Below, one piece after another: positions 45,844 through 60,507 of a DNA stretch of 64,000 nt. A program made the position numbers and the translations under genes. Numbering within the stretch: position 1 is the stretch's first letter; each line of letters begins with the position of its first letter. The notes under the pieces were generated by a model, which saw only the letters and a list, made by a program, of their open reading frames with translations, was not told the DNA's origin and did no database searches. Origin of the DNA: Bdellovibrionales bacterium (GTDB taxonomy: Bacteria > Bdellovibrionota > Bdellovibrionia > Bdellovibrionales > UBA1609); the NCBI GenBank assembly GCA_019637855.1, contig JAHBUX010000003.1, positions 133,431 to 197,430 of the forward strand. The letters are read 5' to 3'.

Positions 45844-46257
45844 TTACTTAAACTGGCACTGTCTGAGAGATACGATAATACGATCTAGCTCGTTGGCCAA
45901 CAGTTCCGAATTGTCGAAGGCCAAATTAGTGATGTTGGAGATTTGCTCCGCACCGCTTTGCAGAGGTTGAAACGTGTCGGCTGGAATGGCTTGAGTCGTC
46001 CCCTCCAACGGCTGTAAAAGCGAATACCAGTTCATCACCCTCTCCACCACTTGGCTCAAGAAACCCGACACGCTCTGGTCATGGCTGCGGGCCATGTTGT
46101 TGTAGTCCACCAGGCGATCGGCGATTTCCGCGCAAGCGTAGTTGGAGCCATCTTCTTTATTGATGGGCAAACGGTCGGTCGGCGCCTCAGGTAGAGGTTC
46201 GAGCGTGAGTGCATGAACGTTGAGCGAGAAAAACAGCAATAAAAGCGTACGGATCAT
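45844..46257 (-). CDS. Small secreted hypothetical protein
   Basis: 137 aa. Signal peptide MIRTLLLLFFSLNVHALT and two Cys. No family recognised. Confidence 0.55.
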   Translation of the reverse strand: MIRTLLLLFFSLNVHALTLEPLPEAPTDRLPINKEDGSNYACAEIADRLVDYNNMARSHDQSVSGFLSQVVERVMNWYSLLQPLEGTTQAIPADTFQPLQSGAEQISNITNLAFDNSELLANELDRIIVSLRQCQFK

Positions 46258-46411
46258 AACTACCCCCGTTAACGGATTTAGGCCCCAGCCGATGGGGAGT
46301 CAAGGCACCCACCCTCTATATATTGCGGGCCAATCGCCGCCGAAATTGCGCTTCAAAGCCAAGCTTTGTCACCGCTTGGGGCCTGGCAGCGAATTTAATG
46401 GGGGCCGAGCA

Positions 46412-46427
46412 TGGTCACCCCCTTGCA
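46412..46427 (+). promoter_or_regulatory. Candidate sigma-54 (-24/-12) promoter upstream of the vWA lipoprotein gene
   Basis: TGGTCAcccccTTGCA has GG and GC separated by exactly 10 nt with a perfect TTGCA -12 element. The -24 element is imperfect (TGGTCA vs TGGCAC). It lies 60 nt upstream of ATG 46487. Motif match only. Confidence 0.25.
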
Positions 46428-46486
46428 TTTTTTGCCCTATCGGAGCTCCCCCTGATTTAGGGGACGGCTCTATTTATGAGGTAGTT

Positions 46487-48979
46487 ATGAACAAGCTAAC
46501 GTTTATGGCCGTGGCCTCCCTCAGCATCGTGCTGGCGGGTTGTCAGAAGGCGAAAATGACCAGTGCTCCGGCAAGTTCGCCGGCTCAGTACACTCCGGGT
46601 CCCGTGGGTCCGGGTGGTCCGTCGCTGCCCCCTCCGATGCCGCCGCGTTATCCGGAGCATGAGCCCATCGACGTACCGCCACCACCGCCGCCGCAGCCGC
46701 CCGTGGTGATTCCTCCTCCGCCGCCTCCGGTTGTGATTCCGCCACGTCCGACCGATCGTGAACCGATCGATCCGATTCGTCCGTCGCCGCCGATTCCGCA
46801 GAATCCGCCGCCGACCGTATATCCGCCACAGCCTCCGACGATGACTCCGATTGACCGTCAGACGCCGGTGGTTCCGCCACCCCCGCCGGTGCGCCCGCCC
46901 GTGGTGAATCCTCCGGTTGTGAATCCTCCAGTCGTGAATCCGCCGCCGGTACAACCTCCGCCGGTTGTGAATCCGCGACCCACAGTTATAAACCCTCCGC
47001 CGCTGCCGACAACGCCAATGGCGACGCAAATTCCTGAGCCGCCGCGCCGGCCATTGATCAACAATCCTCCGGTTCCGGTTCCCAAACCCGTGAGAGAGAC
47101 CGAACTGCCGTCAAATCCGCCGCTGCCCGTGCCCAAGCCGGCCGAGCTGCTGAAGCCGACGCCGATCACGCCGACGCCTGTGTCAACTCCGATCGCCAAA
47201 CCCGTGCCCGTGCAACCGCCGCCGCCTGTTTATGACCCGATCGACGGCCAGTGCGAAGTGGAGCCAGTGACGATTCCGCCCAAGCAAGAGAAAACCAAAC
47301 TGGATATTCTCTTCGTGGTCGACACTTCAGGCTCCATCCGTAAGGGTCCGAACAACAATCGTTCCGAAGGTGGAGAGCTCGCCAAAATGGCCGAGCAGAT
47401 GGATAGCTTCGTGAACAATCTTAAGTCCGGCACGGATACCAACATCGGTGTGATGTTGGCGCACGGACCCAAGTCGCCCTACTTCGGCAAGCTATTTAGC
47501 GCTGGCGAAGTGGCTGTGATTAAGAGCGAGAGCTATAAAAAAGATCGCGCCGGTATGTGGAAACTCCTGCGCAATAAAATGACCAAAGTGCCGGATGACA
47601 AATGGAATCCCCACCAAGGTGAGGCTCCGTTGATGGGCATTTTCGCGGCGATTGCGAGCAATCAACGTCGTAACGCGATTATCGAAGCCGGTCTGTTCCG
47701 CAAGGACGCTAACCTGGCCATCATCATCGTGACCGATGAGAACGACGTGTGCTGGCAGTATCCGAAACCTTTGTCAGATTTCGTGGCGGATGACCAAGCG
47801 GCGTTCCTCGCCGGCAATGCGCCCGTGCTCAAGAAGTATGTGGTGAGCAAAGCGAAGTCGACGATCTCGCCCGATCGCTTAGAAATGCAAGCGCAGAAGC
47901 TGTGCTCTATCAAAGGCACCGACGGCAAAGAGCGCGTGATTGACTACAAAGTCGTGGCTGAAAAGATCCGAGCGCTGACTACACCTGATGCCAAAGGCCA
48001 AGCCTTGATCGAAGGCAAGGTCATGGTGAACGGTATCGTTTATCTGAAGAACGACGGTTTGAAGTCGCTCCCGGGTAACGAAGACGAGAACGAGATGGCT
48101 CACGGTGTGCTGGAGCTGATCCACGAAGTCGGTGGCAAAGCCGCCGATATGGCTGAAGTGCGCCAAGGTGGCGAATCGAATTTCGCCAGCGCCCTCGATC
48201 TGCTTGGCAAGACGACCAGCTTCCAAGCCAAACACAATGTGAATTTCGTGTGCCGCTCGGGTCTGAACGATGGCAAAGGCTTTCACGCTAAAGCCATCGA
48301 TATGGAGACCGTGGACCTGCAGATCATTGAATCGAACCGTAGCGAGTTGGATAGCTTCAACAAAGAGCGTCCGAACTTAAGCGATTTCGGTACGAAGATC
48401 GCGACCTACTCGACTCGTTGCTCAGACAAAGGCGCTTGCAACACAGCCAACGGTGGCCTGCGCGTTGAATCCATCGCCGGTAACACCATTCGTGTCACTC
48501 CGGCCAATGCGACTGAGTACGAGAAGGTGATGAAAGAGCGTGGCATCGACACGGCCAAATACAAGATCACCTTTAAGACCAAGCGTGGCGTAAACCCGCA
48601 CACCGGTGTGGCCGCTGAGCAAGAAGGCAAAGTGAAGAGCGAAGCTCCGGGCCCGAAGGTGCCGGTTGAAACCAAGGCTTCGAAGGCAAACACGTCGTCG
48701 GCAAAAGCCGCGACGTCGGCCAAGACGCCTGTGAAAACCTCAGCAAAAACTGCGGCGCCTTCACCTAAAGCGACCTCGACCAAAGCACCTTCGACTGCCC
48801 CGAAAGCAACGTCGAACAAACCCCTCGATATCAAATCGAGCGCCGCTACGACCGGGTCCAAGACGTCCACCGTAACGAAAACCGCGGACGTATCGGCGGT
48901 CGCCAAGAAGGTGACCACCAGCCCGGCGGCTAAACCCACGGCCAAGAAAATCACCCAAGGCCCCCTACCGAAACTCTAA
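46487..48979 (+). CDS. Large lipoprotein: ~215-aa proline-rich spacer + von Willebrand factor A domain + K/A/S/T-rich C-terminal tail
   Basis: ATG 46487 (GAGG SD) gives MNKLTFMAVASLSIVLAGC (lipobox LAGC). Residues ~36-250 are P-rich (PPPPPPQPPVVIPPPPPPVVIPP..., PVVNP x3). The vWA MIDAS motif LDILFVVDTSGSIR lies at nt ~47300-47335. The last ~125 aa are AKxS/T-type low complexity. The upstream part of the 919-aa ORF (46220-46486) has no signal peptide and overlaps the divergent gene. Confidence 0.8.
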   Translation: MNKLTFMAVASLSIVLAGCQKAKMTSAPASSPAQYTPGPVGPGGPSLPPPMPPRYPEHEPIDVPPPPPPQPPVVIPPPPPPVVIPPRPTDREPIDPIRPSPPIPQNPPPTVYPPQPPTMTPIDRQTPVVPPPPPVRPPVVNPPVVNPPVVNPPPVQPPPVVNPRPTVINPPPLPTTPMATQIPEPPRRPLINNPPVPVPKPVRETELPSNPPLPVPKPAELLKPTPITPTPVSTPIAKPVPVQPPPPVYDPIDGQCEVEPVTIPPKQEKTKLDILFVVDTSGSIRKGPNNNRSEGGELAKMAEQMDSFVNNLKSGTDTNIGVMLAHGPKSPYFGKLFSAGEVAVIKSESYKKDRAGMWKLLRNKMTKVPDDKWNPHQGEAPLMGIFAAIASNQRRNAIIEAGLFRKDANLAIIIVTDENDVCWQYPKPLSDFVADDQAAFLAGNAPVLKKYVVSKAKSTISPDRLEMQAQKLCSIKGTDGKERVIDYKVVAEKIRALTTPDAKGQALIEGKVMVNGIVYLKNDGLKSLPGNEDENEMAHGVLELIHEVGGKAADMAEVRQGGESNFASALDLLGKTTSFQAKHNVNFVCRSGLNDGKGFHAKAIDMETVDLQIIESNRSELDSFNKERPNLSDFGTKIATYSTRCSDKGACNTANGGLRVESIAGNTIRVTPANATEYEKVMKERGIDTAKYKITFKTKRGVNPHTGVAAEQEGKVKSEAPGPKVPVETKASKANTSSAKAATSAKTPVKTSAKTAAPSPKATSTKAPSTAPKATSNKPLDIKSSAATTGSKTSTVTKTADVSAVAKKVTTSPAAKPTAKKITQGPLPKL
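46898..46942 (+). repeat. Three tandem 15-nt coding repeats (PVVNP)3 inside the proline-rich spacer
   Basis: cccgtggtgaatcct / ccggttgtgaatcct / ccagtcgtgaatccg, in frame, with a fourth degenerate copy (ccgccggttgtgaatccg) about 20 nt downstream. Confidence 0.75.
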
Positions 48980-50589: not shown

Positions 50590-52626
50590 CTAGTGCGACA
50601 CGTGTTCCAAAAGGCTGTCGATCAGTTGGCGACGACTGATTGGCTTGGTCAGATGACCTGAGCAGCCGGTTTGCATGCAGCGCTCGCGCTCTTCGTTAAG
50701 AGCGTGAGCAGTCAACGCAATGATGGGTTTGTCATAGCCTTTCTGGCGCAACTCAGTCGTCGCCTGATAGCCATCGACTAGCGGCATTTGAATCTCCATC
50801 AACACCACTTCGTAATCATTGGCCAAGGCTTTGCTGATCCCCTCGCGCCCATTGCTGGCGGTGTCGAGAATCGCTCCCGTGCGGCTAAGAAACTGCTTAA
50901 TTAAAAACTGATTGTCTTCGGCATCCTCAACCAAAAGGATGCGCTTGCCCTTGAGCGATTCGGCGCGATTGGGGTCGGTGACCTGCTGCGGTGTCGGCTG
51001 TTCGGGTTGCGAATGCTCGATCCATTCGGTGTGAGGTGGAACTTCCACCGCGATCGTGACTTCAAAGGTGCTGCCCTGACCGGGCGAACTGTTGAGCAAG
51101 CGCACGTCGCCGCCAAGGGCACGCGCCAGCTTGCGCGCCAAAGCCAAACCTAAACCCGTACCTCCGAAAAGGCGCGTCGTCGAGGTGTCCGCTTGCGAGA
51201 ACGGCTGAAAAATGCGCTCGGCCGCGATGCGATCGATGCCCACACCGCTGTCTTGAATCAAAAAATGCAGGTGTGAAACTTCGTCCACTCGCGAACTGAA
51301 GGAGGTGATCAATGCCACTCGCCCCTCGCGCGTGAATTTGATGGCGTTGCCGATCAAGTTCAAAAGAATCTGACGCACGCGCGTGGAGTCTGTTTTCACC
51401 AAAGTCGGTACGCGGGAGCCGATCTCAAAGGCCAACGTCACGTTCTTTTTCGCCGCCTGCACGTTCATCAAAGTTTTAACTTCGTTGAGCATATCGAAAA
51501 GCGGCAATTCCACCTCTTCCAATTCAAGGCCGCCCGCTTCCACTTTGGAAATATCAAGGATCTCATCCACGATCTTCATCAACGCATGGCCATTGCGACG
51601 GACAATGGAAACGCTTTTGTTTTTTTCCTCATCACTGATGTGCGGATCGAGCAAGAGTTCGGTAAAACCCATAATGGCGTTAAGGGGGGTGCGAATCTCA
51701 TGGCTCATATTGGCCAGAAATTGTGTTTTGGCGTGATTCGCCGACTCCGCCTTTTGCTGCGCCTCTTTCAACTCATCTTCGAATGTCTTGCGATCATGGA
51801 TATCTGTACAGGTGCCAAGCCAGGCCATCACTTCGCCGCGATCATTTAACTCCGGCTCGGCTTTCACCCAATGCCAGCGGAAAACGCCATCATAACGACG
51901 AATCTTACACTCAGTTTCATAACGCGTGCGTTTGCGCATGGCCCGATACCAGACACTCAAAACACTTTGCAATTGGTCGGGACAAATCGCCGATTGCCAG
52001 CCCATGCCCAAACTCTCAGAAAGACTTAAGCCGGTATACTCAGTCCACAGGTGGTTGTGATATTCCAAATCGCCATCGGGTAGCGCGCGCAAAACGATAT
52101 GGGGGATGGCATCGGCAAGATTGCGGTAGCGCCGCAGATTCTCCATCTCGACGGACTGAATCTGAGCTTTGCGTTCCATGGCCTCGCGCTCGGCCAAAAG
52201 ACGCGATTGCAGCTGTAAACGCCGATTTTTCAAATGCAATTCAGCGAAGACCGCGACTTTCTTCGATAGAATCACCGGATCAAAAGGCTTAAAAACATAG
52301 TCTACAGCACCTGCTTCAAAGCCGCGATAGACGTAACGTTCGTCTTTGTTAATGGCCGTAACGAAGACGATCGGCACTTGTGCGTAGTTCGGTTGACGAC
52401 GAATCAGCTCCGCAGTTTCAAAACCGTCGAGCTCAGGCATCTGAACGTCGAGCAAAATCAGCCCAAAATCATATTTATCCAAAAGCGAAAGTGCGGCGCG
52501 CCCCGAAGTGGCCTTGACCAAGCGGTAGCCCGGATTTTCTCCAAGTACAGCTTCAAGGGCGATCAGCCCGTCCTCCCGATCATCGACCAGGAGGATATCC
52601 ACTTTCTCGTCAATTTGCGCGGGCAT
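50590..52626 (-). CDS. Soluble hybrid sensor histidine kinase (REC - PAS - HisKA - HATPase_c - REC)
   Basis: 678 aa. N-terminal REC ([10 protein letters not shown]...[11 protein letters not shown]), PAS-like region, H-box [16 protein letters not shown] boxes ([22 protein letters not shown]) and C-terminal REC ([10 protein letters not shown]...[10 protein letters not shown]). No TM segment. The start overlaps the upstream kinase by 17 nt. Confidence 0.92.
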
Positions 52627-55600
52627 CCGATCTCACCATCAACCAATCGTAAATCGTTGCAAGTAGCGTCTCTTCATCCACAGGCTTGGTGATGTAATCG
52701 GAAGCGCCGGCCTCTAAACATTTCTCGCGGTCACCCTTCATGGCTTTGGCGGTCAAAGAAACAATCGGTAGGTTATGATACACGGGATTCTCACGGATGC
52801 GACGAGTGGCTTCCAAACCATCCATCTCGGGCATCATGGTGTCCATAAGAACCAACTCCACATCGCTGTGCTTGTCCAGCAGGTCCAGCGCGTGCTTACC
52901 ATTTTCGGCATGCATGATGTTCATTCCGCGCGCCTTCAATATGGAGTTGAGCGCGAAAACGTTGCGCATATCATCGTCCACAATCAGAATCGTGCGACCG
53001 GTGAAGTCAATACCTTCCGGCATATGCAGCCGCGGGGTGATCGTCTCGGAGTCAAAGTCGCTGCTCGCCACCGTATCCGGTCCCGAATAACGCTGCGGCA
53101 AAAACAGACGGAAAGTCGAACCTTGGCCAGGCACGCTCTCCACCTGGATGTAGCCGCCGAGCAGACGCGCAATCTCGCGACTGATCGTTAACCCCAAACC
53201 GGTACCGCCGTATTTGCGGCTGGTCGTGCCATCGGCCTGTTGGAATGCTTCGAAGATAAGCTTTTGCTTTTCCATCGGGATGCCAATGCCCGTGTCGGTT
53301 ACCGAGAACACCATCATGCCATTGCCTTGTCCAGGCTGGGTCAAGCCGATCTCGAATTTGACCTGCCCCGAGTCGGTAAACTTAAAGGCGTTAGACAGCA
53401 AATTCTTAAGAATCTGCTGTAATCGACTCTCATCAGTGAACATCTTCGACGGCACTTTGGAGTCAGCCACGATCTTGAATTCCAAATTCTTGTGCTCGGC
53501 CACGGGGCGGAACGTTTGCTCCAGGTAACCTACTACGTCTTGGGTATGCACGTCTTTCGGGTCAACCGGCATTTTTCCGGCTTCCACTTTGGACAGATCC
53601 AAGATCTCGTTGATCAACGCCAACAGATCATTGCCAGCCGAGTGCACCGTTTTGGCGTACTTGACTTGTTCGGATGACAAGTTGCCATCTTTGTTCATGG
53701 CCAGCGTCTTCGACAGAATCAAGAGACTATTGAGCGGCGTGCGCAGCTCATGTGACATATTGGCCAAGAATTCCGACTTATATTTGGAGATAAGCGAAAG
53801 CTGCTCGGCTTTTTCTTCCAGAGAACGCGAGGCCAGCTCGACCTCCTGGTTTTTGACCTCCAGCAGACCGGCTTTGTCCTCAAGCTCGGTGGCTTGCGCT
53901 TCGAGTTCGGCGTTGGAGCGTTTCAGCTCCTGCAGCAGCTCCTCGGTACGCATCGAGCTTGAGATCATATTCAAGATAACACCCACTGAATCCATGAGCT
54001 GATCCAGGAAGTAGATGTAGTTTTCAGTGAACGGCTTGAGCGAGGCCAGTTCAATCACCGCCTTCAGCTCACCCTCGAACATCACAGGCAATACGATCAC
54101 ATTGCGCGGTGTGAGCTCAAGCAGCGAAGAGGAGATTTTCACATAGGTCTCATCCGGCTGAATGATCAAGATACGCTTTTTCTCAAACGCACACTGACCG
54201 ATCAGCCCCTCTTTGAGCTTGAAGCGGCTGGACACCGAACGGCGCTCGGTGAAGGCGTAGGTCGCGATCAAATTGAGCGATGCCTGATCAACATCGTCGT
54301 CACCCATATCGGCAAGATAAAATGTCCCCTGGCGCGCATCCACAAGCGGCGTCAGTTCAGACATAATCAACTGAGCCACGGCCGTGATCGAGCGCTGACC
54401 TTGCATCATCGAGGAGAAGCGCGCCAGGTTGGTCTTCAACCAATCTTGCTCGGTGTTCTTGGCCGTGGTGTCTTTCAGATTGGAGATCATCTGGTTGATA
54501 TTGTCTTTCAACGCCGCAACTTCGCCTTGAGCTTCCACTGTGATGGCTCGACTCAAATCGCCTTTAGTCACCGCGGTCGACACTTCCGCGATTGCGCGCA
54601 CCTGCGAGGTCAAGTTACCGGCCAGCTGGTTCACGTTGTCAGTCAAATCTTTCCATGTACCCGAAGCGCCTGGCACTTTGGCCTGGCCACCCAGCTTGCC
54701 CTCAATTCCCACCTCACGTGCCACCGAGGTCACCTGATCGGCAAAGGTCCGCAAAGTGTCGGTCATCGAGTTGATGGTTTCCGCCAGAGCGGCCACTTCA
54801 CCTTTGGCTTCGATAACGAACTTTTGGTTCAAATCCCCGTTCGCAACGGCCGTCACAACCTTAACGATACCACGCACCTGCTTGGTAAGGTTTGAGGCCA
54901 TGAAGTTCACGTTGTCGGTTAAGTCTTTCCATGTACCCAGAGCACCAGGCACCTTGGCCTGACCGCCCAGCTTGCCTTCAATTCCCACCTCACGTGCCAC
55001 TGTAGTCACCTGATCGGCAAAGGTCCGCAAAGTGTCGGTCATCGAGTTGATGGTTTCCGCCAGAGCGGCCACTTCACCTTTAGCTTCGATAACGAACTTT
55101 TGGTTCAAATCCCCGTTCGCAACGGCCGTCACAACCTTAACGATACCGCGCACCTGCTTGGTGAGGTTTGAGGCCATGAAGTTCACGTTGTCAGTTAAAT
55201 CTTTCCACACACCGCTCACACCGCGCACTTCGGCTTGTCCGCCTAGCTTGCCTTCCGTGCCCACCTCTTTCGCCACACGAGTCACCTCGGCAGCAAACGA
55301 GTTCAGCTGATCCACCATCGTATTGATCGTGTTCTTAAGCTCGAAGATCTCACCGCGTGCATCCACTGTGATCTTTTGCGACAAATCCCCGTTCGCCACC
55401 GCGGTTGTCACCTTCGCGATGTTACGAACTTGGTTGGTCAAGTTACCGGCAAGATGATTCACATTGTCGGTCAGGTCTTTCCAAGTGCCGCTCACACCGC
55501 GCACTTCGGCTTGTCCGCCTAGCTTTCCTTCCGTACCCACCTCTTTCGCCACACGAGTTACCTCTGCAGCAAACGAGTTCAGCTGATCCACCATCGTATT

Positions 55601-58138
55601 GATCGTGTTCTTAAGCTCCAGGATCTCGCCACGCGCATCCACTGTGATCTTTTGCGACAAGTCTCCGGTGGCCACCGCGGTCGTCACCTTAGCGATGTTA
55701 CGAACTTGGTTGGTCAAGTTACCGGCAAGATGGTTCACGTTGTCGGTCAGATCTTTCCACACACCGGAAACGCCTTTCACGTCGGCCTGACCGCCAAGCT
55801 TTCCTTCCGTGCCCACTTCTTTCGCCACACGAGTCACCTCGGCAGCGAACGAGTTCAGTTGATCCACCATCGTATTGATCGTGTTTTTAAGCTCGAAGAT
55901 CTCACCACGCGCATCCACCGTGATCTTTTGCGACAAGTCTCCGGTGGCCACCGCGGTCGTCACCTTAGCGATGTTACGCACCTGAGCAGTTAAGTTGCCA
56001 GCAAGGTGGTTCACATTGTCGGTCAGATCTTTCCAAGTGCCTGAGACACCTTTCACATCGGCCTGACCGCCAAGACGGCCTTCCGTACCCACCTCTTTCG
56101 CAACGCGAGTCACCTCAGCCGCAAACGAGTTCAGTTGATCCACCATCGTGTTGATGGTGTTTTTTAGTTCCAAGATCTCGCCGCGCGCATCCACCGTGAT
56201 CTTTTGCGACAAATCGCCTTTCGCCACCGCGGTCGTCACTTTGGCGATGTTACGCACCTGCTCGGTCAAGTTGCCGGCCAAGAGGTTCACGTTGTCGGTC
56301 AGATCTTTCCAGGTGCCTGAGACACCTTTCACATCAGCCTGACCGCCGAGCTTGCCTTCCGTACCCACCTCTTTCGCAACGCGTGTCACCTCAGAAGCGA
56401 AGGAGGATAGCTGATCCACCATCTTATTGATCACATCTTTAATCTGCAGAATCTCACCGCGCACATCGACCGTGATCTTCTGCGACAAGTCTCCGGTCGC
56501 AATGGCGGTGGCCACTTTCGAAACGTCGCGCAATTGAACCGTCAAGTTCGAGGCCATCGCATTCACGTTGTCGGTCAGATCTTTCCACGTGCCGGACACA
56601 CCTTTCACATCGGCTTGTCCGCCGAGCTTTCCTTCTGTGCCCACCTCTTTCGCCACACGAGTCACCTCAGCAGCGAAGGAGCGCAGCGTATCCACCATCG
56701 TATTGATGGTGTCTTTGAGCTCCAAGATCTCGCCCTTCGCATCGACCGTGATCTTCTGCGACAAATCGCCGTTCGCCACCGCAATGGTCACTTTCGCGAT
56801 GTTACGCACCTGAGCGGTCAAATTGTTGGCCAAACCATTCACGTTGTCGGTCAGGTCTTTCCAAGTGCCGGAAACACCTTTCACATCGGCCTGACCGCCA
56901 AGACGGCCTTCCGTACCCACCTCTTTTGCAACGCGCGTCACCTCAGCAGCGAAAGAGCGCAGCTGATCCACCATCGTGTTGATCGTGTTCTTCAACTCCA
57001 AGATCTCACCGCGCGCATCCACCGTGATCTTCTGCGACAGGTCCCCGTTGGCAACAGCGGTCGTCACCTTGGCGATGTTACGCACCTGAGCGGTCAGATT
57101 GTCGGCCAAGCCATTCACGTTGTCGGTCAGGTCCTTCCACACACCGGAAACACCTTTCACGTTCGCCTGACCGCCCAGTTTTCCTTCCGTACCCACGTCC
57201 TTCGCAACGCGCGTCACCTCGGCGGCGAACGAGGACAGCTGATCCACCATTACGTTAATGGTGTTCTTCAACTCAAAGATCTCACCACGCGCATCCACCG
57301 TGATCTTCTGCGACAAATCGCCTTTCGCCACCGCGGTCGTCACCTTAGCGATGTTACGCACCTGATCGGTCAAGTTGCCGGCCAAAACGTTCACGTTGTC
57401 AGTGAGGTCTTTCCACACACCGGAAACGCCTTTCACCTCGGCCTGACCGCCGAGCTTGCCTTCCGTACCCACCTCTTTCGCAACGCGTGTCACCTCAGAG
57501 GCAAATGAGTTCAGCTGATCCACCATCGCGTTCACCGTGGTGCCGATGCGCAAGAACTCCCCTTTGACCGGGCGCGAATCCACTTCCAAATACATCTTCT
57601 GCGACAAATCGCCCTTCGCCACAGAGGTGATCACACGCGCCACCTCTGTGGTCGGATGCACAAGATCGGTGATCATCAAGTTCACAGAGTCCACCGAAGT
57701 GGCCCAGGAGCCTTTGACCGAGCCCATATTCACCCGCTCAGTCATGCGCCCTTCCAAACCAATGATGTTACGCACACGCACGAACTCATTGGCCATGTTC
57801 TCGTTCTGCTCGATGATGTCGTTTAACACTTCACCGATCTCCGACACGATTCCTTCGCTATCAAGGCTCATGCGCACGGAGAAATCACCGGAACGAACGG
57901 CTTTCACCACCTGATGAAGCGAGCGCAGCTGCCCGCGCAGCTTTTGCGGATCGAACGCCGACACACTGTCAAAATCAGAATGGCGCGCGGCCTGGTAAAC
58001 TGTTTTTACATTAGCCGCGCGTGGTGTGGGGGGGACAGGACGATTGGTGGAAGTTTTTCCAGCATCGTTGGGGGTGCCTTTATCCTTGGAACTGCGTTTC
58101 GAAGACTTCTTCGGCGGTACCGCTGCGTTAGGCTGCAT
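52610..58138 (-). CDS. Giant soluble hybrid histidine kinase: K/P-rich N-tail, ~13 x 92-aa poly-HAMP units, GAF, coiled coil, HisKA, HATPase_c, REC
   Basis: 1842 aa with a GGAGGAG SD. The WKDLTDNVN signature recurs 11 times at exact 92-aa spacing. GAF-like segment: [15 protein letters not shown]...[19 protein letters not shown]-box [14 protein letters not shown]; DTGIGI; GGTGLGL. C-terminal REC: [10 protein letters not shown]...[10 protein letters not shown]. No TM helix. Confidence 0.93.
54467..57943 (-). repeat. In-frame tandem array of 276-nt (92-aa) HAMP-pair coding units within the giant kinase gene
   Basis: The period of 276 nt is visible in the DNA and in mirrored antisense ORFs (e.g. 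54756 vs 55032; 55599 vs 56148). The conserved core is 54656-57415 (11 units), with two more divergent units upstream. Units 9 and 10 are nearly identical. Confidence 0.9.
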
Positions 58139-58416
58139 AGATTACTCCTCCCATGCTCCCTCAATACAATGTGGAACGACTATTTTTGGTCTCGGCCGCC
58201 TAAAAAGTTAATCTAAAATATTGTATGTGCCCGAAGTGACTGCAGCAGATGCGTGGTTTCATACTTGCTATGTGCGGAGAAATGTCCCGTGAACAAAGGC
58301 ACCGTATTTTGCAATAGACCGCTGCTGCCCCAAGTTGCTCAAATACTAGGCTGCGAATACGTTCACTAAACGAACTTAGTGAATCTTAAAAATACTTTCG
58401 GCGTGGTGAGCCAAAA

Positions 58417-58839
58417 TCAGTAGGCTTTGTCGGCGGAGTTGAGAGCTGGCAATTCATAGCGCGAGTAGTCCTCCAGCGCGCCTTCGATCTGATAGATCGA
58501 CTCTTGACTCAAGTGAGAGCGCTGCTCAAGCAACAAGATGCGCAGGCGCTTTCCCAGCGTACCGAAGTCTTCGGCATCATCATAAAGAGCGGCACGATCA
58601 ATCGTGAAAGCATAAGCGGTTTTCAGCTTTCGGGCCTGCCAGTACAAGGTTCCGCCCCAGGAGCGATAGAAGCGAACCACCTGGCTTACGACCTCGCTGA
58701 GACTGTCAGGGTTGACATAGACGACATGAGCCGCCGCAAGCGACCGCTCACACTGCTCAAGTGTCGTCACATCCGCCGCTGCGAAGGGACCCGAAACTGC
58801 AACTGCCAGCGCAACCACAACCTTCAACAATTTGATCAT
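58417..58839 (-). CDS. Small secreted hypothetical protein
   Basis: 140 aa. Signal peptide MIKLLKVVVALAVAVSGPFAAA. No family recognised. Last gene of the 61749-58417 string. Confidence 0.55.
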   Translation of the reverse strand: MIKLLKVVVALAVAVSGPFAAADVTTLEQCERSLAAAHVVYVNPDSLSEVVSQVVRFYRSWGGTLYWQARKLKTAYAFTIDRAALYDDAEDFGTLGKRLRILLLEQRSHLSQESIYQIEGALEDYSRYELPALNSADKAY

Positions 58840-58865: not shown

Positions 58866-59159
58866 CTAGTTTTTCTTCTTAAAGAGGGCTTCCGCCGCAG
58901 CTAGCATTGCATCGCGCGTATTGGCCCCGGAACCGACCCCTTTTCCAGGTGAGAAGTACTCACAATGGTTGGCGCGGTCTTTTTCGCGCACGCGTTCGGC
59001 CGAAGGTTCGCGACATTCATTGTAGGCCTTTTCATCGTAGAACTGGCAGTTCTTACAGACATGCACATCTTCGTGACACTTGGGACACTCCTCCCTGAGA
59101 CCGATGCGATCGGCATATTTGAGAGGCGATGAGCAATGAAAGCAGTTCAGTTCGATCAC
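58866..59159 (-). CDS. Cys-rich zinc-ribbon-like small protein
   Basis: 97 aa with three CxxC pairs (CFHC, CPKC, CKNC) plus two further Cys. The ATG overlaps the glpX stop by 1 nt. Family not recognised. Confidence 0.6.
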   Translation of the reverse strand: MIELNCFHCSSPLKYADRIGLREECPKCHEDVHVCKNCQFYDEKAYNECREPSAERVREKDRANHCEYFSPGKGVGSGANTRDAMLAAAEALFKKKN

Positions 59160-60121
59160 TACACCTTCACCTTGATATTGAAGTTGTGATCAGCTTCGAT
59201 ACGACGAACGGTGCCGGTGGCCGAGCGCATAACGATCGAATGCGTTTGGCCACGATTGCCAGGCAACATACGCACACCTTTAAGCAAGGGGCCATCCGTC
59301 ACCCCGGTGGCACAAAACATCACCGAGCCGCGGGCCAATTCGTCACGCTTGAAAATCCTATCCGGCTCGGAAATTCCCATCTTCAAAGCGCGCTCCCGTT
59401 CTTGAGCATTGCGAAATTTCAAGCGCCCTTCAAAATCACCGCCCAAACATTTCAAAGCAGCCGCCGTAATCACACCCTCCGGCGCGCCACCGATGCCCAT
59501 AAGCAGATCAATGCCGGACTCTTCCCAGCAAGGGGCGATCCCGGCGGAGACATCGCCGTCTCCAATCAAGCGAATGCGGGCGCCGAGCTTGCGCACCCGC
59601 TGGATAAGGTCGGCGTGGCGCGGACGATCCAAGATCACCACCGTCACATCCTCTACGCGCTTGTTCAAAACTTCAGCCACGACACTCACGTTTTCTTCCG
59701 GCGTTTTCTCCAAAGACACACGCCCGGCCGCACGCGGACCACAGGCGATTTTCTCCATATATGTATCGGGGGCGTGCAAGAAGTTGCCGCGTTCCGCAAC
59801 AGCGATCACGGCAATCGCGCCCACGCCGCCATTGGCGCAAATCGTGGTGCCTTCCAAAGGGTCCAGAGCGATATCAACCGCGGGCGAATTGGCCGCCCGA
59901 CGCCCCACATTCTCGCCAATATAGAGCATAGGCGCCTCATCACGCTCACCCTCTCCAATCACCACGGTGCCTTCGACATCAACCGAATCAAACGCCTTGC
60001 GCATGGCATCCACCGCCGCCTGATCGGCGCGCTTCTCATCACCTCGTCCCATCAAACGAGCGCTGGCAATAGCAGCGGCTTCGGTGATCCTTACGAATTC
60101 GAGAGCCAGGTTTCGATCCAT
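59159..60121 (-). CDS. glpX: Class II fructose-1,6-bisphosphatase GlpX
   Basis: A 320-aa product from ATG 60121: MDRNLALEFVRITEAAAIASARLMGRGDEKRADQAAVDAMR...VVIGEGERDEAPMLYIGE aligns by eye with E. coli GlpX from residue 1. The longer 389-aa ORF is an R-rich extension over the thioesterase gene. Confidence 0.93.
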   Translation of the reverse strand: MDRNLALEFVRITEAAAIASARLMGRGDEKRADQAAVDAMRKAFDSVDVEGTVVIGEGERDEAPMLYIGENVGRRAANSPAVDIALDPLEGTTICANGGVGAIAVIAVAERGNFLHAPDTYMEKIACGPRAAGRVSLEKTPEENVSVVAEVLNKRVEDVTVVILDRPRHADLIQRVRKLGARIRLIGDGDVSAGIAPCWEESGIDLLMGIGGAPEGVITAAALKCLGGDFEGRLKFRNAQERERALKMGISEPDRIFKRDELARGSVMFCATGVTDGPLLKGVRMLPGNRGQTHSIVMRSATGTVRRIEADHNFNIKVKV

Positions 60122-60507
60122 GCTTCCTTCTCCAATTGGGCGGACAACTCGGGCGCCGGCTTCATCGGCCTTAACGCGCTGTTGACCGGAATATGTAGGG
60201 TCTCGGCTTCGGCGATGCGTTCGCCGTTCTTTAAAACCGCGTACTGAAAATGAATCTTGGCACCCTCGCGCCGCACTTGCAGCTGTACCACCAAAAGATC
60301 GTCGAACGTGCAGGGCTTCATATGCCACACTTGAAAGCGCAGCACGGCTAAGACGTGATCAGCCTTCGGATAGTGAATGCGCGACAGATCCTTGGATCGC
60401 ATCCAGGCCACCCGCGCCTCTTCAAAGTAGCGCACATAATTGGCGTGATGAGTGACGCCCATGGCATCGGTGTCGGAAAACGCGACCCGCCGTTCGTAGG
60501 AAAACAA
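60091..60507 (-). CDS. 4HBT/YbgC-type acyl-CoA thioesterase (hotdog fold)
   Basis: YERRVAFSDTDAMGVTHHANYVRYFEEARVAWMR is the YbgC/4HBT signature, with catalytic Asp in DTD. TTG at 60507 (GGGAG SD 6 nt upstream, 1 nt after the PilZ stop) gives the usual ~138 aa. The longest ORF (to 60678) would overlap the PilZ gene by 170 nt. Confidence 0.75.
   Translation of the reverse strand: MFSYERRVAFSDTDAMGVTHHANYVRYFEEARVAWMRSKDLSRIHYPKADHVLAVLRFQVWHMKPCTFDDLLVVQLQVRREGAKIHFQYAVLKNGERIAEAETLHIPVNSALRPMKPAPELSAQLEKEAWIETWLSNS

What the first reader, a model, noticed from the sequence alone, without database searches (positions are those of the whole stretch)
54467..57943. About 3.4 kb of exact-period 276-nt units: a ~13-unit (roughly 25-HAMP) rod inside a soluble 1842-aa hybrid kinase
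- **Repeat structure.** Eleven consecutive units start with the identical WKDLTDNVN signature at exactly 92-aa spacing (ORF residues 242, 334 ... 1162, i.e. nt 57415 down to 54655). Two more divergent units precede them (residues ~66-241).
- **Unit composition.** Each unit reads as two HAMP-like helix-connector-helix modules. One is canonical ([42 protein letters not shown]). One is divergent ([49 protein letters not shown]).
- **Flanking domains.** The array is followed by GAF, a coiled coil, HisKA/HATPase_c and REC. There is no TM helix and no recognisable ligand-binding domain, and the N-terminus is a K/P/S-rich disordered tail.
- **Known context.** Alternating canonical/divergent HAMP concatenation is known from Aer2-type poly-HAMP and from the ~90-aa repeats of fungal group III hybrid kinases (Nik1/OS-1). 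Those typically have around half a dozen units.
- **Open question.** What a cytoplasmic rod of this length senses or transmits is not known.
Basis: partly seen in the sequence, partly recalled or inferred. Interest (0 to 1): 0.65.

Follow-up and report, generated by a model that had tools for sequence, protein, structure and literature searches.

The report
Ordinary 25-HAMP AskA-type hybrid kinase
The 3.4-kb repeat is real and encodes a rod of 25 back-to-back HAMP signalling domains in a soluble hybrid histidine kinase. This is a typical member of the described AskA/AskB poly-HAMP kinase family, and 25 was the commonest array length in my similarity-selected samples.

Summary
**Observation: confirmed exactly.** ORF 52610-58138 (-) encodes 1842 aa. 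WKDLTDNVN recurs 11 times at 92-aa (276-nt) spacing with no indels.

**Interpretation: right, novelty overstated.**
- Residues 65-348 match the crystal structures of the Myxococcus xanthus AskA poly-HAMP array (PDB 9trk/9trj) at E 5e-114.
- The match includes the special first HAMP, the Pro kink and linker insertion of HAMP3, and the junction Trp.
- The array is one D1 HAMP plus 12 non-canonical/canonical pairs: 25 contiguous HAMPs (residues 67-1221). GAF, coiled coil, HisKA, HATPase and REC follow.
- This architecture is published (Coles et al. 2026; Marcos-Torres et al. 2020). AskA has 21 HAMPs and AskB has 31.

**How it compares.**
- The identical protein is already in NCBI, from a Bdellovibrionales MAG.
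- Relatives occur in many phyla.
- 25 HAMPs was the commonest length in my samples (51 of 78 genomes), and both samples were selected by similarity to this protein.

**Not an assembly artefact.** Units are 62-90% identical in DNA, with a longest shared exact run of 77 nt.

**Partner gene.** A REC-PAS-HK-REC kinase overlaps the stop codon. A REC-led gene follows the kinase in 46 of 74 related genomes, as askC follows askB.

**Open.** What the rod senses remains unknown.

**Verdict.** New member of a known kind; low interest.

The parts
52610..58138 (-). Whole gene: 1842-aa soluble poly-HAMP hybrid histidine kinase (AskA/AskB type)
   Evidence: - ORF and translation.
- 100% identical to the NCBI entry 'MAG: HAMP domain-containing protein [Bdellovibrionales bacterium]' (P0005).
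57941..58138 (-). N-terminal low-complexity basic tail (residues 1-66)
   Evidence: - Net charge +8 over residues 1-45. The tail has 9 Pro and 13 Ser+Thr, and no Pfam hit.
- Five close orthologues also have basic tails (+5 to +8) with no sequence conservation.
57803..57940 (-). HAMP1: the specialised first canonical HAMP ('D1' type), residues 67-112
   Evidence: - Aligns to the first HAMP of the AskA crystal construct 9trk.
- Weak Pfam HAMP hit when scanned alone (18 bits).
- Unit-HMM hit at 67-112.
57662..57802 (-). HAMP2: first non-canonical (C-type) HAMP, residues 113-159, carrying the junction Trp145
   Evidence: - Aligns to AskA HAMP2 in 9trk.
- No Pfam hit when scanned alone.
57512..57661 (-). 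HAMP3: canonical HAMP with Pro162 in the input helix and a 5-residue linker insertion ([11 protein letters not shown]), residues 160-209
   Evidence: - Aligned without gaps to AskA HAMP3.
- The Pro kink and the beta-hairpin insertion are described as hallmarks of AskA-like arrays (PMC13446029).
- Pfam HAMP scores 26 bits.
54476..57511 (-). HAMP4-HAMP25: eleven exact 92-aa (276-nt) di-HAMP modules (non-canonical then canonical), residues 210-1221
   Evidence: - Unit-HMM hits tile this stretch edge to edge.
- 44 of 92 columns are invariant, including 8 Gly and the Trp.
- TRF reports period 276 with 0% indels.
53972..54394 (-). GAF domain (residues 1249-1389), set between two long helices
   Evidence: - Pfam GAF_2 at 2e-13.
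- AlphaFold2 model has mean pLDDT 87.5.
- Foldseek returns generic GAF folds at 13-20% identity.
53780..53971 (-). Helical coiled-coil linker from GAF to the DHp domain (residues 1390-1453)
   Evidence: - The model ends in a long helix, H158-185, which corresponds to protein residues 1372-1399.
- The sequence that follows is heptad-like and Glu/Leu-rich. Calling it a coiled coil is an inference.
53576..53779 (-). HisKA/DHp domain with an intact H-box (H1463, HELRTP)
   Evidence: - Pfam HisKA.
- H-box motif found by pattern scan.
53093..53437 (-). HATPase_c catalytic domain (N, G1 and G2 boxes present)
   Evidence: - Pfam HATPase_c.
- Motifs found by pattern scan.
52652..52990 (-). Single C-terminal receiver domain (acceptor Asp in [11 protein letters not shown])
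   Evidence: - Pfam Response_reg, one stretch.
- Acceptor motif found by pattern scan.
50590..52626 (-). Partner gene, probably co-transcribed: 678-aa REC-PAS-HisKA-HATPase-REC hybrid kinase whose start overlaps the poly-HAMP gene's stop by 17 nt
   Evidence: - ORF coordinates and Pfam domains.
- The same two-gene module occurs in Bdellovibrio sp. HCB337.
- A REC-led gene lies directly after the stop in 46 of 74 related genomes.

Best explanation
**What it is**
- This is a Bdellovibrionales orthologue of the bacterial 'kinase-associated poly-HAMP' hybrid histidine kinases. The reference members are AskA and AskB of Myxococcus xanthus. The fungal relatives are the group III kinases (Nik1/Os-1).

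**Shown here**
- The repeat encodes one specialised first HAMP plus 12 non-canonical/canonical pairs, giving 25 contiguous HAMPs.
- These are followed by GAF, a helical linker, a catalytically intact DHp/CA kinase core and one receiver domain.
- There is no membrane segment.

**Inferred from the AskA crystal structures and the published model**
- The protein dimerises into one continuous supercoiled four-helix rod.
- My own estimate of its length is roughly 60 nm. This was not measured.
- Each output helix runs on into the next input helix.
- Neighbouring HAMPs are locked together by glycine caps and by a Trp-backbone hydrogen bond.

**Proposed mechanism (inferred)**
- The two HAMP types rotate in opposite senses (x-da versus da-x packing). 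The rod would therefore behave as a chain of coupled two-state switches.
- A shift in this equilibrium would pass through the GAF-flanking helices to the DHp domain. It would set the balance between kinase and phosphatase activity.
- The input most likely acts at the conserved N-terminal 'head' (the basic disordered tail plus HAMP1-3), along the rod itself, or both.
- Output goes to the protein's own receiver domain. From there it enters a multi-kinase relay with the overlapping REC-PAS-HK-REC partner gene, much as AskB works with AskC.
For: **Family identity**
- PDB 9trk and 9trj (AskA 6-HAMP and 4-HAMP constructs) match residues 65-348 at E 4.7e-114. [quoted passage not shown] The match includes HAMP3's Pro and linker insertion.
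- The 25 HAMPs tile contiguously.
- Each of the 12 non-canonical HAMPs has exactly one Trp at the junction position, and the array has no other Trp.
- Eight Gly positions are invariant in each module.
- GAF, HisKA, HATPase and REC follow the array. The H, N, G1 and G2 boxes and the acceptor Asp are intact.
- There is no transmembrane helix.

**Published description**
- The family, its architecture and the coupled-rotation model are described in PMC13446029.
- Functional work on AskA, AskB and AskC is in PMC7643160.

**Comparative evidence**
- More than 8000 homologues scored E <= 1e-30.
- At least 598 matches were found among species-representative genomes of many phyla.
- Array lengths are always odd, and 25 was the commonest value in both samples.
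- Bdellovibrio sp. HCB337 has an orthologue that is 83% identical, also carries 25 HAMPs and has the same partner gene downstream.
- HAMP1-3 and the last two modules keep their positional identity across phyla.
Against: **Mechanism not tested**
- Nothing about the mechanism was tested here. Dimerisation, helix rotation and phosphotransfer are all taken from relatives.

**Input unknown**
- The input signal is unknown, both for this protein and for the family as a whole (PMC13446029).
- The array contains no Cys, so the Cys-modification route proposed for fungal kinases cannot act on the rod here.
- The GAF domain could be the true sensor.

**Partner and relay**
- I could not obtain the AskC sequence, so I could not show that the partner kinase is an AskC orthologue.
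- No HPt domain was found in the genes I scanned.
- The partner's second receiver carries Glu instead of the acceptor Asp in this genome.
Confidence: 0.8

Rival explanations
1. The GAF domain is the real sensor. The HAMP rod is mainly a rigid spacer, ruler or docking scaffold for partner proteins. It is not a signal-conducting switch.
For: - The GAF domain is confidently modelled (pLDDT 87.5). It is strongly conserved, with 28 invariant columns over 25 diverse sequences.
- Array length is held at 25 in many distant phyla, while module content drifts or is homogenised. This is what a length constraint would produce.
- AskA, AskB and AskC bind each other and transcription factors in vitro (PMC7643160).
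Against: - Junction Gly and Trp, and the core positions, are invariant in every module. That goes beyond what a simple spacer needs.
- In fungal group III kinases, point mutations at HAMP junctions and cores change signalling (PMC13446029).
- The fungal relative P0062 has no precomputed GAF Pfam domain, yet it keeps the array.
- The nearest solved GAF structures share only 13-20% identity, so no ligand can be assigned.
Confidence: 0.25
2. The repeats are arrays of partial helix-turn-helix DNA-binding motifs (SpoIIID/DeoR-like and RpiR-like), and the rod binds DNA directly. This was suggested for AskA and AskB.
For: - Whole-protein Pfam scores for SpoIIID (51 bits) and HTH_6 (38 bits) exceed their cut-offs.
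- AskB bound the mrpC promoter in vitro (PMC7643160).
Against: - No single stretch passes threshold for either family ('0 stretches').
- One di-HAMP unit scanned alone gives SpoIIID E = 0.085 at 13 bits, against a cut-off of 27. The whole-protein score is therefore a sum over 11 repeats.
- The 28-residue matches lie on the non-canonical-to-canonical junction (for example residues 791-818). That junction is a continuous bundle helix in the AskA crystal structure (PMC13446029).
- If this protein binds DNA, the basic N-terminal tail is the more plausible element.
Confidence: 0.03
3. The array length is an assembly artefact: a collapse or expansion of a repeat in a metagenome-assembled genome.
For: - The source is a MAG.
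- Modules 10 and 11 are similar to each other (about 90% in DNA).
Against: - Units are only 62-90% identical in DNA.
- The longest exact run shared by any two units is 77 nt.
- Differences concentrate at third codon positions: 1822, against 746 and 546 at the first and second positions.
- The reading frame is intact across all 25 domains.
- A complete Bdellovibrio genome (CP178621.1) encodes an orthologue that is 83% identical and has the same 25 HAMPs.
- 51 of 78 other genomes also have 25 HAMPs.
Confidence: 0.02

Closest known systems
AskA (MXAN_0712) and AskB (MXAN_6735) of Myxococcus xanthus; Amb07 of Sorangium cellulosum: bacterial kinase-associated poly-HAMP hybrid kinases (PMC13446029, PMC7643160; PDB 9trk, 9trj)
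   Same: - A D1 first HAMP, followed by repeating non-canonical/canonical 92-aa modules.
- HAMP3 carries the Pro kink and the linker insertion.
- Junction Trp and Gly are conserved.
- GAF-DHp-CA-REC lies downstream.
- Soluble, with no upstream sensor domain.
- Residues 65-348 align to AskA at E 5e-114.
- A second hybrid kinase gene lies directly downstream, as askC does after askB.
   Different: - 25 HAMPs, against 21 in AskA and 31 in AskB.
- One receiver domain, whereas AskA has at least three ('Rec3').
- The host is a Bdellovibrionales bacterium with no fruiting-body development, so the biological role must differ.
- Orthology of the partner gene to AskC was not shown.
Fungal group III hybrid histidine kinases (Nik1, Os-1, Bos1, TcsC, Drk1)
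   Same: - The same C/D-type HAMP pairs with a repeat of about 92 aa.
- Soluble, with HisKA-HATPase-REC output.
- Coles et al. place them in the same kinase-associated poly-HAMP class.
- A fungal protein (Calocera cornea, P0062) is among the top hits.
   Different: - The fungal proteins I recall usually have far fewer HAMPs. This is from my own knowledge, not from a tool result.
- The fungal hit P0062 shows no precomputed GAF Pfam domain.
- They feed the Ypd1-Ssk1-HOG pathway.
- The proposed Cys-modification input cannot apply here, because the array has no Cys.
Chemoreceptor-associated poly-HAMP arrays (HAMP types A/B) and FrzCD
   Same: - Long arrays of alternating canonical and non-canonical HAMPs.
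[quoted passage not shown]
- No upstream sensor.
- FrzCD has a basic N-terminal extension that binds DNA.
   Different: - The output is a methyl-accepting domain, not a kinase.
- The HAMP sequence types differ and are of independent origin.
- The junction residue is usually Phe rather than Trp.
Aer2 (Pseudomonas and Vibrio): a 'multi-HAMP' receptor (PDB 3LNR, cited from my own knowledge)
   Same: - Alternating x-da and da-x HAMP conformations.
- Tight HAMP2-HAMP3 packing through Gly caps.
   Different: - Only five diverse HAMPs, interrupted by a haem-PAS sensor.
- Chemoreceptor output.
- No repeating di-HAMP module.
- Coles et al. class it separately from poly-HAMP arrays.

Membership tests
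Kinase-associated poly-HAMP hybrid kinases (AskA-like) | The array starts with a specialised canonical 'D1' HAMP | tested here: met
   - Residues 67-112 align to the first HAMP of AskA in 9trk.
- They diverge from the internal canonical HAMPs: 17 bits, against 61-103 bits on the unit HMM.
Kinase-associated poly-HAMP hybrid kinases (AskA-like) | Repeating di-HAMP modules (non-canonical C, then canonical D2) joined without linkers | tested here: met
   - 12 C-D2 pairs, 11 of them exactly 92 aa, tile residues 113-1221 edge to edge.
- The total is therefore odd (25), as in all 193 relatives measured.
Kinase-associated poly-HAMP hybrid kinases (AskA-like) | [quoted passage not shown] | tested here: met
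   - The array holds 12 Trp, one per non-canonical HAMP, all at the same position.
- Gly is invariant at module positions 15, 18, 21, 22, 28, 31, 64 and 76.
Kinase-associated poly-HAMP hybrid kinases (AskA-like) | The third HAMP has a Pro in the input helix and an insertion in the connector | tested here: met
   - Pro162 and the 5-residue-longer connector ([11 protein letters not shown]) are aligned without gaps to AskA.
- The feature is described in PMC13446029.
Kinase-associated poly-HAMP hybrid kinases (AskA-like) | Downstream GAF, DHp/CA kinase core and at least one receiver; no TM segment and no upstream sensor domain | tested here: met
   - Pfam domains.
- GAF model.
- Catalytic motifs.
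- Hydropathy scan.
- The N-terminal tail has no Pfam hit.
Kinase-associated poly-HAMP hybrid kinases (AskA-like) | Dimeric continuous four-helix rod with alternating packing states | not testable with these tools
   - Only monomer prediction is offered.
- The feature is inferred from the close match to the solved AskA segment (E 4.7e-114).
Ask system of M. xanthus (AskA/AskB with AskC) | A partner hybrid kinase (AskC) encoded immediately downstream and interacting with the poly-HAMP kinase | tested here: inconclusive
   - A REC-PAS-HK-REC kinase overlaps the stop codon here.
- A REC-led gene follows the stop in 46 of 74 related genomes.
- The AskC sequence and architecture could not be retrieved: the figure is held only as an image, and no M. 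xanthus protein appeared in the hit lists.
HAMP domain as defined by Pfam (PF00672 / PF18947) | Each half-unit scores above the Pfam gathering threshold | tested here: not met
   - Canonical halves pass, at 26-45 bits.
- Non-canonical halves (residues 113-159 and 210-255) give no hit when scanned alone. D1 alone scores 18 bits, below the cut-off of 25.
- The 12 HAMP and 12 HAMP_2 stretches probably lie on the same canonical domains. In single units both models hit the canonical half.
Fungal group III hybrid histidine kinases | Eukaryotic kinase in which the HAMP array is joined to HisKA-HATPase-REC without a GAF domain, feeding the HOG pathway | tested here: not met
   - The context is bacterial: the window carries MutS, FtsH, TilS and pur genes.
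- A GAF domain is present here.
- The HAMP types and repeat length are shared, so this is the same superfamily.
Aer2-type multi-HAMP or chemoreceptor poly-HAMP | A methyl-accepting signalling domain as output (plus a PAS-haem sensor in Aer2) | tested here: not met
   - No MCP-signal or PAS domain is found in this protein.
- The NCBIfam Aer2 model hit (356 bits, against a cut-off of 1200) is confined to HAMP repeats.

The most novel reading that the evidence does not exclude
**Proposed reading**
- The array is a molecular ruler held at exactly 25 HAMPs by selection across distant phyla.
- It has a polar design: a conserved 'head' (basic tail plus HAMP1-3), a homogenised core, and position-specific last modules.
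- It works as an obligate two-kinase unit with the adjacent REC-led partner.
- The basic tail would anchor one end to the nucleoid or to an anionic membrane. The kinase end would then sit about 60 nm away.

**Why it is not excluded**
- The published view, by contrast, is that array length is freely tuned by gain and loss of modules.
Probability: 0.2. Interest if true: 0.5.

Novelty: new member of a known kind. Interest (0 to 1): 0.22.

Why it matters
**What is open**
- Poly-HAMP kinases are widespread in soil and water bacteria. Their fungal members are the targets of phenylpyrrole, dicarboximide and ambruticin fungicides.
- What the rods sense, and why they are so long, is still unsettled.

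**What this window adds**
- It does not open that question any further than the M. xanthus and fungal models already do.
- It does show that predatory Bdellovibrionota carry the standard 25-HAMP version together with a conserved partner kinase.
- The cultivated strain Bdellovibrio sp. HCB337 has the same module, so it could serve as a small-genome test bed.

**Leads and a practical warning**
- The census made here gives two modest leads for the field. In these similarity-selected samples 25 is the commonest length, and the ends of the array keep positional identity while the centre is homogenised.
- Pfam counts only the canonical half of these arrays.

Tried and rejected
**Corrected reading**
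1. I first read Pfam's 12 HAMP plus 12 HAMP_2 stretches as 24 separate domains. Scanning single half-units showed that both models hit the canonical half and that the divergent half is invisible to Pfam.

**Explanations tested and rejected**

2. SpoIIID and HTH_6 'DNA-binding' hits: rejected as sums over sub-threshold repeats.
3. Assembly artefact: rejected on unit divergence and on orthologues of the same length.
4. Recent tandem amplification.
   - Synonymous codon differences outnumber non-synonymous ones (1274 against 845). Units are 62-90% identical in DNA.
   - The array is therefore old.
   - Modules 10 and 11 may reflect a lineage-specific conversion.

**Searches that led nowhere**

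5. Attempts to prove that the partner kinase is AskC.
   - The AskC architecture in the paper's supplement is held only as an image.
   - Homologue searches with the window's partner and with a Myxococcaceae partner listed no M. xanthus protein among the top 120.
6. The look-up of encoding contigs had no record for P0034 or P0005.
7. The promoter and terminator scan around the operon found nothing above the shuffled background. The one exception is a terminator-like hairpin at 58396-58416, just downstream of the upstream small gene.
8. The GAF fold search gave only generic GAF neighbours at 13-20% identity, so no ligand could be assigned.

Full report
**1. The observation**

The ORF at 52610..58138 on the - strand encodes 1842 aa. 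The nonapeptide WKDLTDNVN occurs 11 times, at residues 242, 334 ... 1162. Every interval is exactly 92 aa. The first bases lie at nt 57415 ... Tandem Repeats Finder gives period 276, no indels and 83-90% matches over 54629-57528. Over the eleven exact modules, 44 of 92 columns are invariant.

**2. What the units are**

- Pfam scores HAMP (400 bits, 12 stretches) and HAMP_2 (325 bits, 12 stretches). It also finds GAF_2 (1249-1389), HisKA (1454-1521), HATPase_c (1568-1682) and one receiver (1717-1829).
- Scanning single half-units changed my first reading. Both HAMP models hit the canonical half ([11 protein letters not shown]...GDLSQKI...MVDQL).
- The divergent half ([23 protein letters not shown]...WKDLTDNVN) gets no Pfam hit on its own.
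- A profile count with Pfam therefore gives 12-13 domains, not 25.
- The divergent halves are HAMPs by another route. Residues 65-348 match PDB 9trk and 9trj at E 4.7e-114 and 4.1e-67. The only gap is a 2-residue difference at the N-terminal end.
- These entries are the 6-HAMP and 4-HAMP segments of Myxococcus xanthus AskA fused to GCN4. In them the corresponding segments fold as non-canonical HAMP four-helix bundles (PMC13446029).
- HMMs built from the window's own half-units tile residues 67-1221 edge to edge. The one exception is HAMP2 (113-159), which the AskA alignment covers.
- The array is one special first HAMP ('D1', 67-112) plus 12 non-canonical/canonical pairs. That makes 25 HAMPs, at nt 54476-57940.

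**3. Family membership**

Coles et al. (Protein Sci 2026, PMC13446029) define 'kinase-associated poly-HAMP arrays' by the features below. Each was checked here and is present.

- A D1 first HAMP.
- C/D2 repeats.
[quoted passage not shown] The array has 12 Trp, one per non-canonical HAMP and none elsewhere.
- Conserved Gly in the helix caps. Eight Gly positions are invariant per module.
- A third HAMP with a Pro kink and a connector insertion that forms a beta-hairpin. Here these are Pro162 and [11 protein letters not shown].
- A downstream GAF-DHp-CA-REC module.
- No upstream sensor. There is no transmembrane segment, with a maximum hydropathy of 1.53, and the tail has no Pfam hit.

The kinase looks catalytically competent. 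The H-box HELRTP, the N, G1 and G2 boxes and the receiver acceptor Asp are all present.

AskA has 21 HAMPs and AskB has 31. The group III kinases of fungi belong to the same class. The protein is therefore a member of a described family. The identical sequence is already in NCBI as 'MAG: HAMP domain-containing protein [Bdellovibrionales bacterium]' (P0005).

**4. How unusual is the length?**

- The protein search returned the maximum of 8000 hits at E <= 1e-30. The listed relatives are 1800-3035 aa long. They come from Acidobacteriota, Planctomycetota, Verrucomicrobiota, Myxococcota, Gemmatimonadota, Betaproteobacteria and a fungus.
These include Nostoc, Fischerella, Bradyrhizobium, Streptomyces, Flavobacterium and Eremiobacterota.
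- I located the start of each array with the HAMP1-3 segment and its end with the last canonical HAMP. Lengths could be measured in 193 of 200 proteins.
- 94% of measured lengths fall within 0.1 HAMP of an integer, and every rounded count is odd (21 to 55).
- 25 is the commonest value: 51 of 78 species-representative genomes and 28 of 115 database clusters.

| Sample | Selection method | Likely bias | Arrays with 25 HAMPs |
|---|---|---|---|
| Species-representative genomes | 80 best tblastn matches to a 25-HAMP query | Probably favours 25 | 51 of 78 |
| Database clusters | Ranked by summed HMMER score | Favours longer arrays | 28 of 115 |

Both samples are biased, so the distribution is not unbiased. 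Even so, a 25-HAMP array is plainly ordinary for this family. The cultivated Bdellovibrio sp. HCB337 (complete genome CP178621.1) has an orthologue of 1836 aa that is 83% identical and also carries 25 HAMPs.

**5. Artefact or recent amplification?**

- The ten 276-nt units compared (residues 262-1181) are 62-90% identical in DNA.
- The longest exact run shared by any two units is 77 nt.
- Differences fall mainly at third codon positions: 1822, against 746 and 546 at the first and second positions.
- Synonymous codon differences outnumber non-synonymous ones, 1274 against 845.
- Each unit is therefore individually recognisable, so a mis-assembled copy number is unlikely. The array is old and under purifying selection. 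It is not a fresh expansion.

**6. Internal polarity of the array**

- Compared module by module with relatives, the last two modules of the window best match the same positions in Bradyrhizobium, Nostoc, Eremiobacterota, Bacteroidia and Acidobacteriaceae.
- Modules 2-9 match no particular position, and they are 76-96% identical to one another within the protein.
- The HAMP1-3 triad is found as a unit in 193 of 200 relatives.
- In distant phyla, the window's modules 10 and 11 both best match position 11. In close relatives they match positions 10 and 11 respectively.
- It appears that module content changed in this lineage while the count stayed at 12 modules.
- This fits a constraint on length, but it is an inference from a biased sample.

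**7. Surroundings**

- Directly downstream, a 678-aa REC-PAS-HisKA-HATPase-REC kinase (50590-52626) starts 17 nt before the poly-HAMP gene's stop.
- Its identical sequence is annotated on a contig of the same length (215,877 bp) as the one carrying the poly-HAMP protein.
- The same pair, 16 nt apart, occurs in Bdellovibrio sp. HCB337, with unrelated genes on either side.
- Among 74 related genomes with enough downstream DNA, 46 have a gene that begins with a homologous receiver directly after the stop. The median gap is 28 nt. Thirty of these genes also carry a kinase core.
- In M. xanthus, askC lies immediately downstream of askB. AskC binds AskA and AskB, and it mediates ambruticin sensitivity (PMC7643160).
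- I could not retrieve AskC's sequence or architecture. The equivalence is therefore suggested, not shown.
- The rest of the window is housekeeping chromosome: MutS, purine synthesis, Der, Era, MnmA, GlmM, FtsH and TilS.
- No HPt domain was seen in the genes scanned.

**8. Possible inputs**

- *N-terminal tail.* Residues 1-45 carry net charge +8. Five close orthologues also have basic tails (+5 to +8) with no sequence conservation. Across 85 annotated relatives the tail is positive in 69%, with a median charge of +2. Coles et al. note that the basic N-terminal extension of FrzCD binds DNA and that AskB binds DNA in vitro.
- *HTH-like Pfam hits.* The SpoIIID and HTH_6 hits that Marcos-Torres et al. 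read as partial helix-turn-helix motifs recur here. No single stretch passes threshold, and one unit scanned alone scores E 0.085. I treat these hits as repeat-summation artefacts.
- *Cysteine modification.* The array has no Cys. The Cys-modification route discussed for fungal kinases therefore cannot act on the rod here.
- *GAF domain.* It models well (pLDDT 87.5, pTM 0.82) and sits between two long helices. Its nearest solved relatives are generic GAFs at 13-20% identity: fRMsr, the PtsP GAF and the cAMP-binding Lcd1 GAF. No ligand can be named.

**9. Mechanism**

*Shown:* the domain order, the contiguity of the array, the conserved junction residues and the intact catalytic motifs.

*Inferred from AskA structures and the published model:*
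- The protein forms a parallel dimer in which the 25 HAMPs make one supercoiled four-helix rod.
[quoted passage not shown] - Each pair therefore reverses the sense of helix rotation and then restores it.
- The rod would act as a chain of coupled switches whose equilibrium sets the state of the DHp/CA core through the helices flanking the GAF domain.

*My commitments and rough likelihoods:*
- The input most likely acts at the conserved head (basic tail plus HAMP1-3), along the rod, or both.
- Output enters a multi-kinase relay with the overlapping partner gene.
- I hold the family identity at about 0.95.
- I hold the mechanism at about 0.4-0.5.
- The rod length of about 60 nm is my own estimate. 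It assumes roughly 2.5 nm per HAMP, from helices of about 18 residues, and was not measured.

**10. Verdict**

The feature is a typical member of a described and structurally characterised family, and its length is the commonest one in my samples. Novelty: new member of a known kind. Interest: low, about 0.2.

A few modest leads remain:
- the apparent constancy of 25 HAMPs across phyla;
- the polar design of the array;
- the conserved REC-led partner gene;
- the Asp-to-Glu change in the partner's second receiver.

Noticed in passing
window 50794-50796 (codon 611 of the partner kinase gene 50590-52626, - strand): The C-terminal receiver of the downstream REC-PAS-HK-REC kinase has Glu at the phospho-acceptor position (VVLMEIQMP). 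118 of 120 homologues have Asp there. This could be a phosphomimetic pseudo-receiver in this lineage, or a single-base error in the MAG.
   Followed up: partly
window 54476-57940 (the HAMP array): Pfam HAMP and HAMP_2 detect only the canonical half of each unit. The non-canonical HAMPs get no Pfam hit when scanned alone, so Pfam-based domain counts for this family are about half the true number. The homologues' precomputed annotation lists a newer family, PF26769, which did not appear among the hits of the Pfam scan run here. I could not find out what it is.
   Followed up: partly
window 54752-55303 (modules 10 and 11, residues 946-1129): These two adjacent modules are near-duplicates (87% protein identity; the overlapping DNA units are about 90% identical). 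Both best match position 11 in arrays from distant phyla. In close relatives they match positions 10 and 11. This suggests a lineage-specific conversion that changed content while the module count stayed the same.
   Followed up: partly
window 46220-48979 (+): A 919-aa ORF with a long Pro-rich region (PPVVNPPVVNPPVVN repeats) and a Ser/Thr/Ala/Lys-rich C-terminus. It has no Pfam hit. It may be a surface or secreted protein.
   Followed up: no
P0062 (Calocera cornea, fungus): A 3035-aa fungal histidine kinase with about 55 HAMPs by my count. That is far above the handful of HAMPs I recall for typical fungal group III kinases.
   Followed up: no
window 59159-60328 (-) and 59129-60247 (+): The glpX-type fructose-1,6-bisphosphatase ORF, as listed from its GTG start, carries about 70 residues ahead of the Pfam domain. 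Its true start is probably the internal Met. The 372-aa ORF on the opposite strand looks like a shadow ORF.
   Followed up: no
window 58396-58416 (-): A terminator-like hairpin sits just downstream of the small secreted-protein gene 58417-58839 and upstream of the poly-HAMP gene. This suggests that the two kinase genes form their own transcription unit. The scan as a whole was not above the shuffled background.
   Followed up: no
L019 68-8172 (Myxococcaceae MAG): A poly-HAMP kinase with three C-terminal receivers is followed by a 706-aa REC-PAS-HK-REC gene whose ATG overlaps the upstream gene's stop by 1 nt. This is the same two-gene layout as in the window, in the family that includes M. xanthus.
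   Followed up: partly
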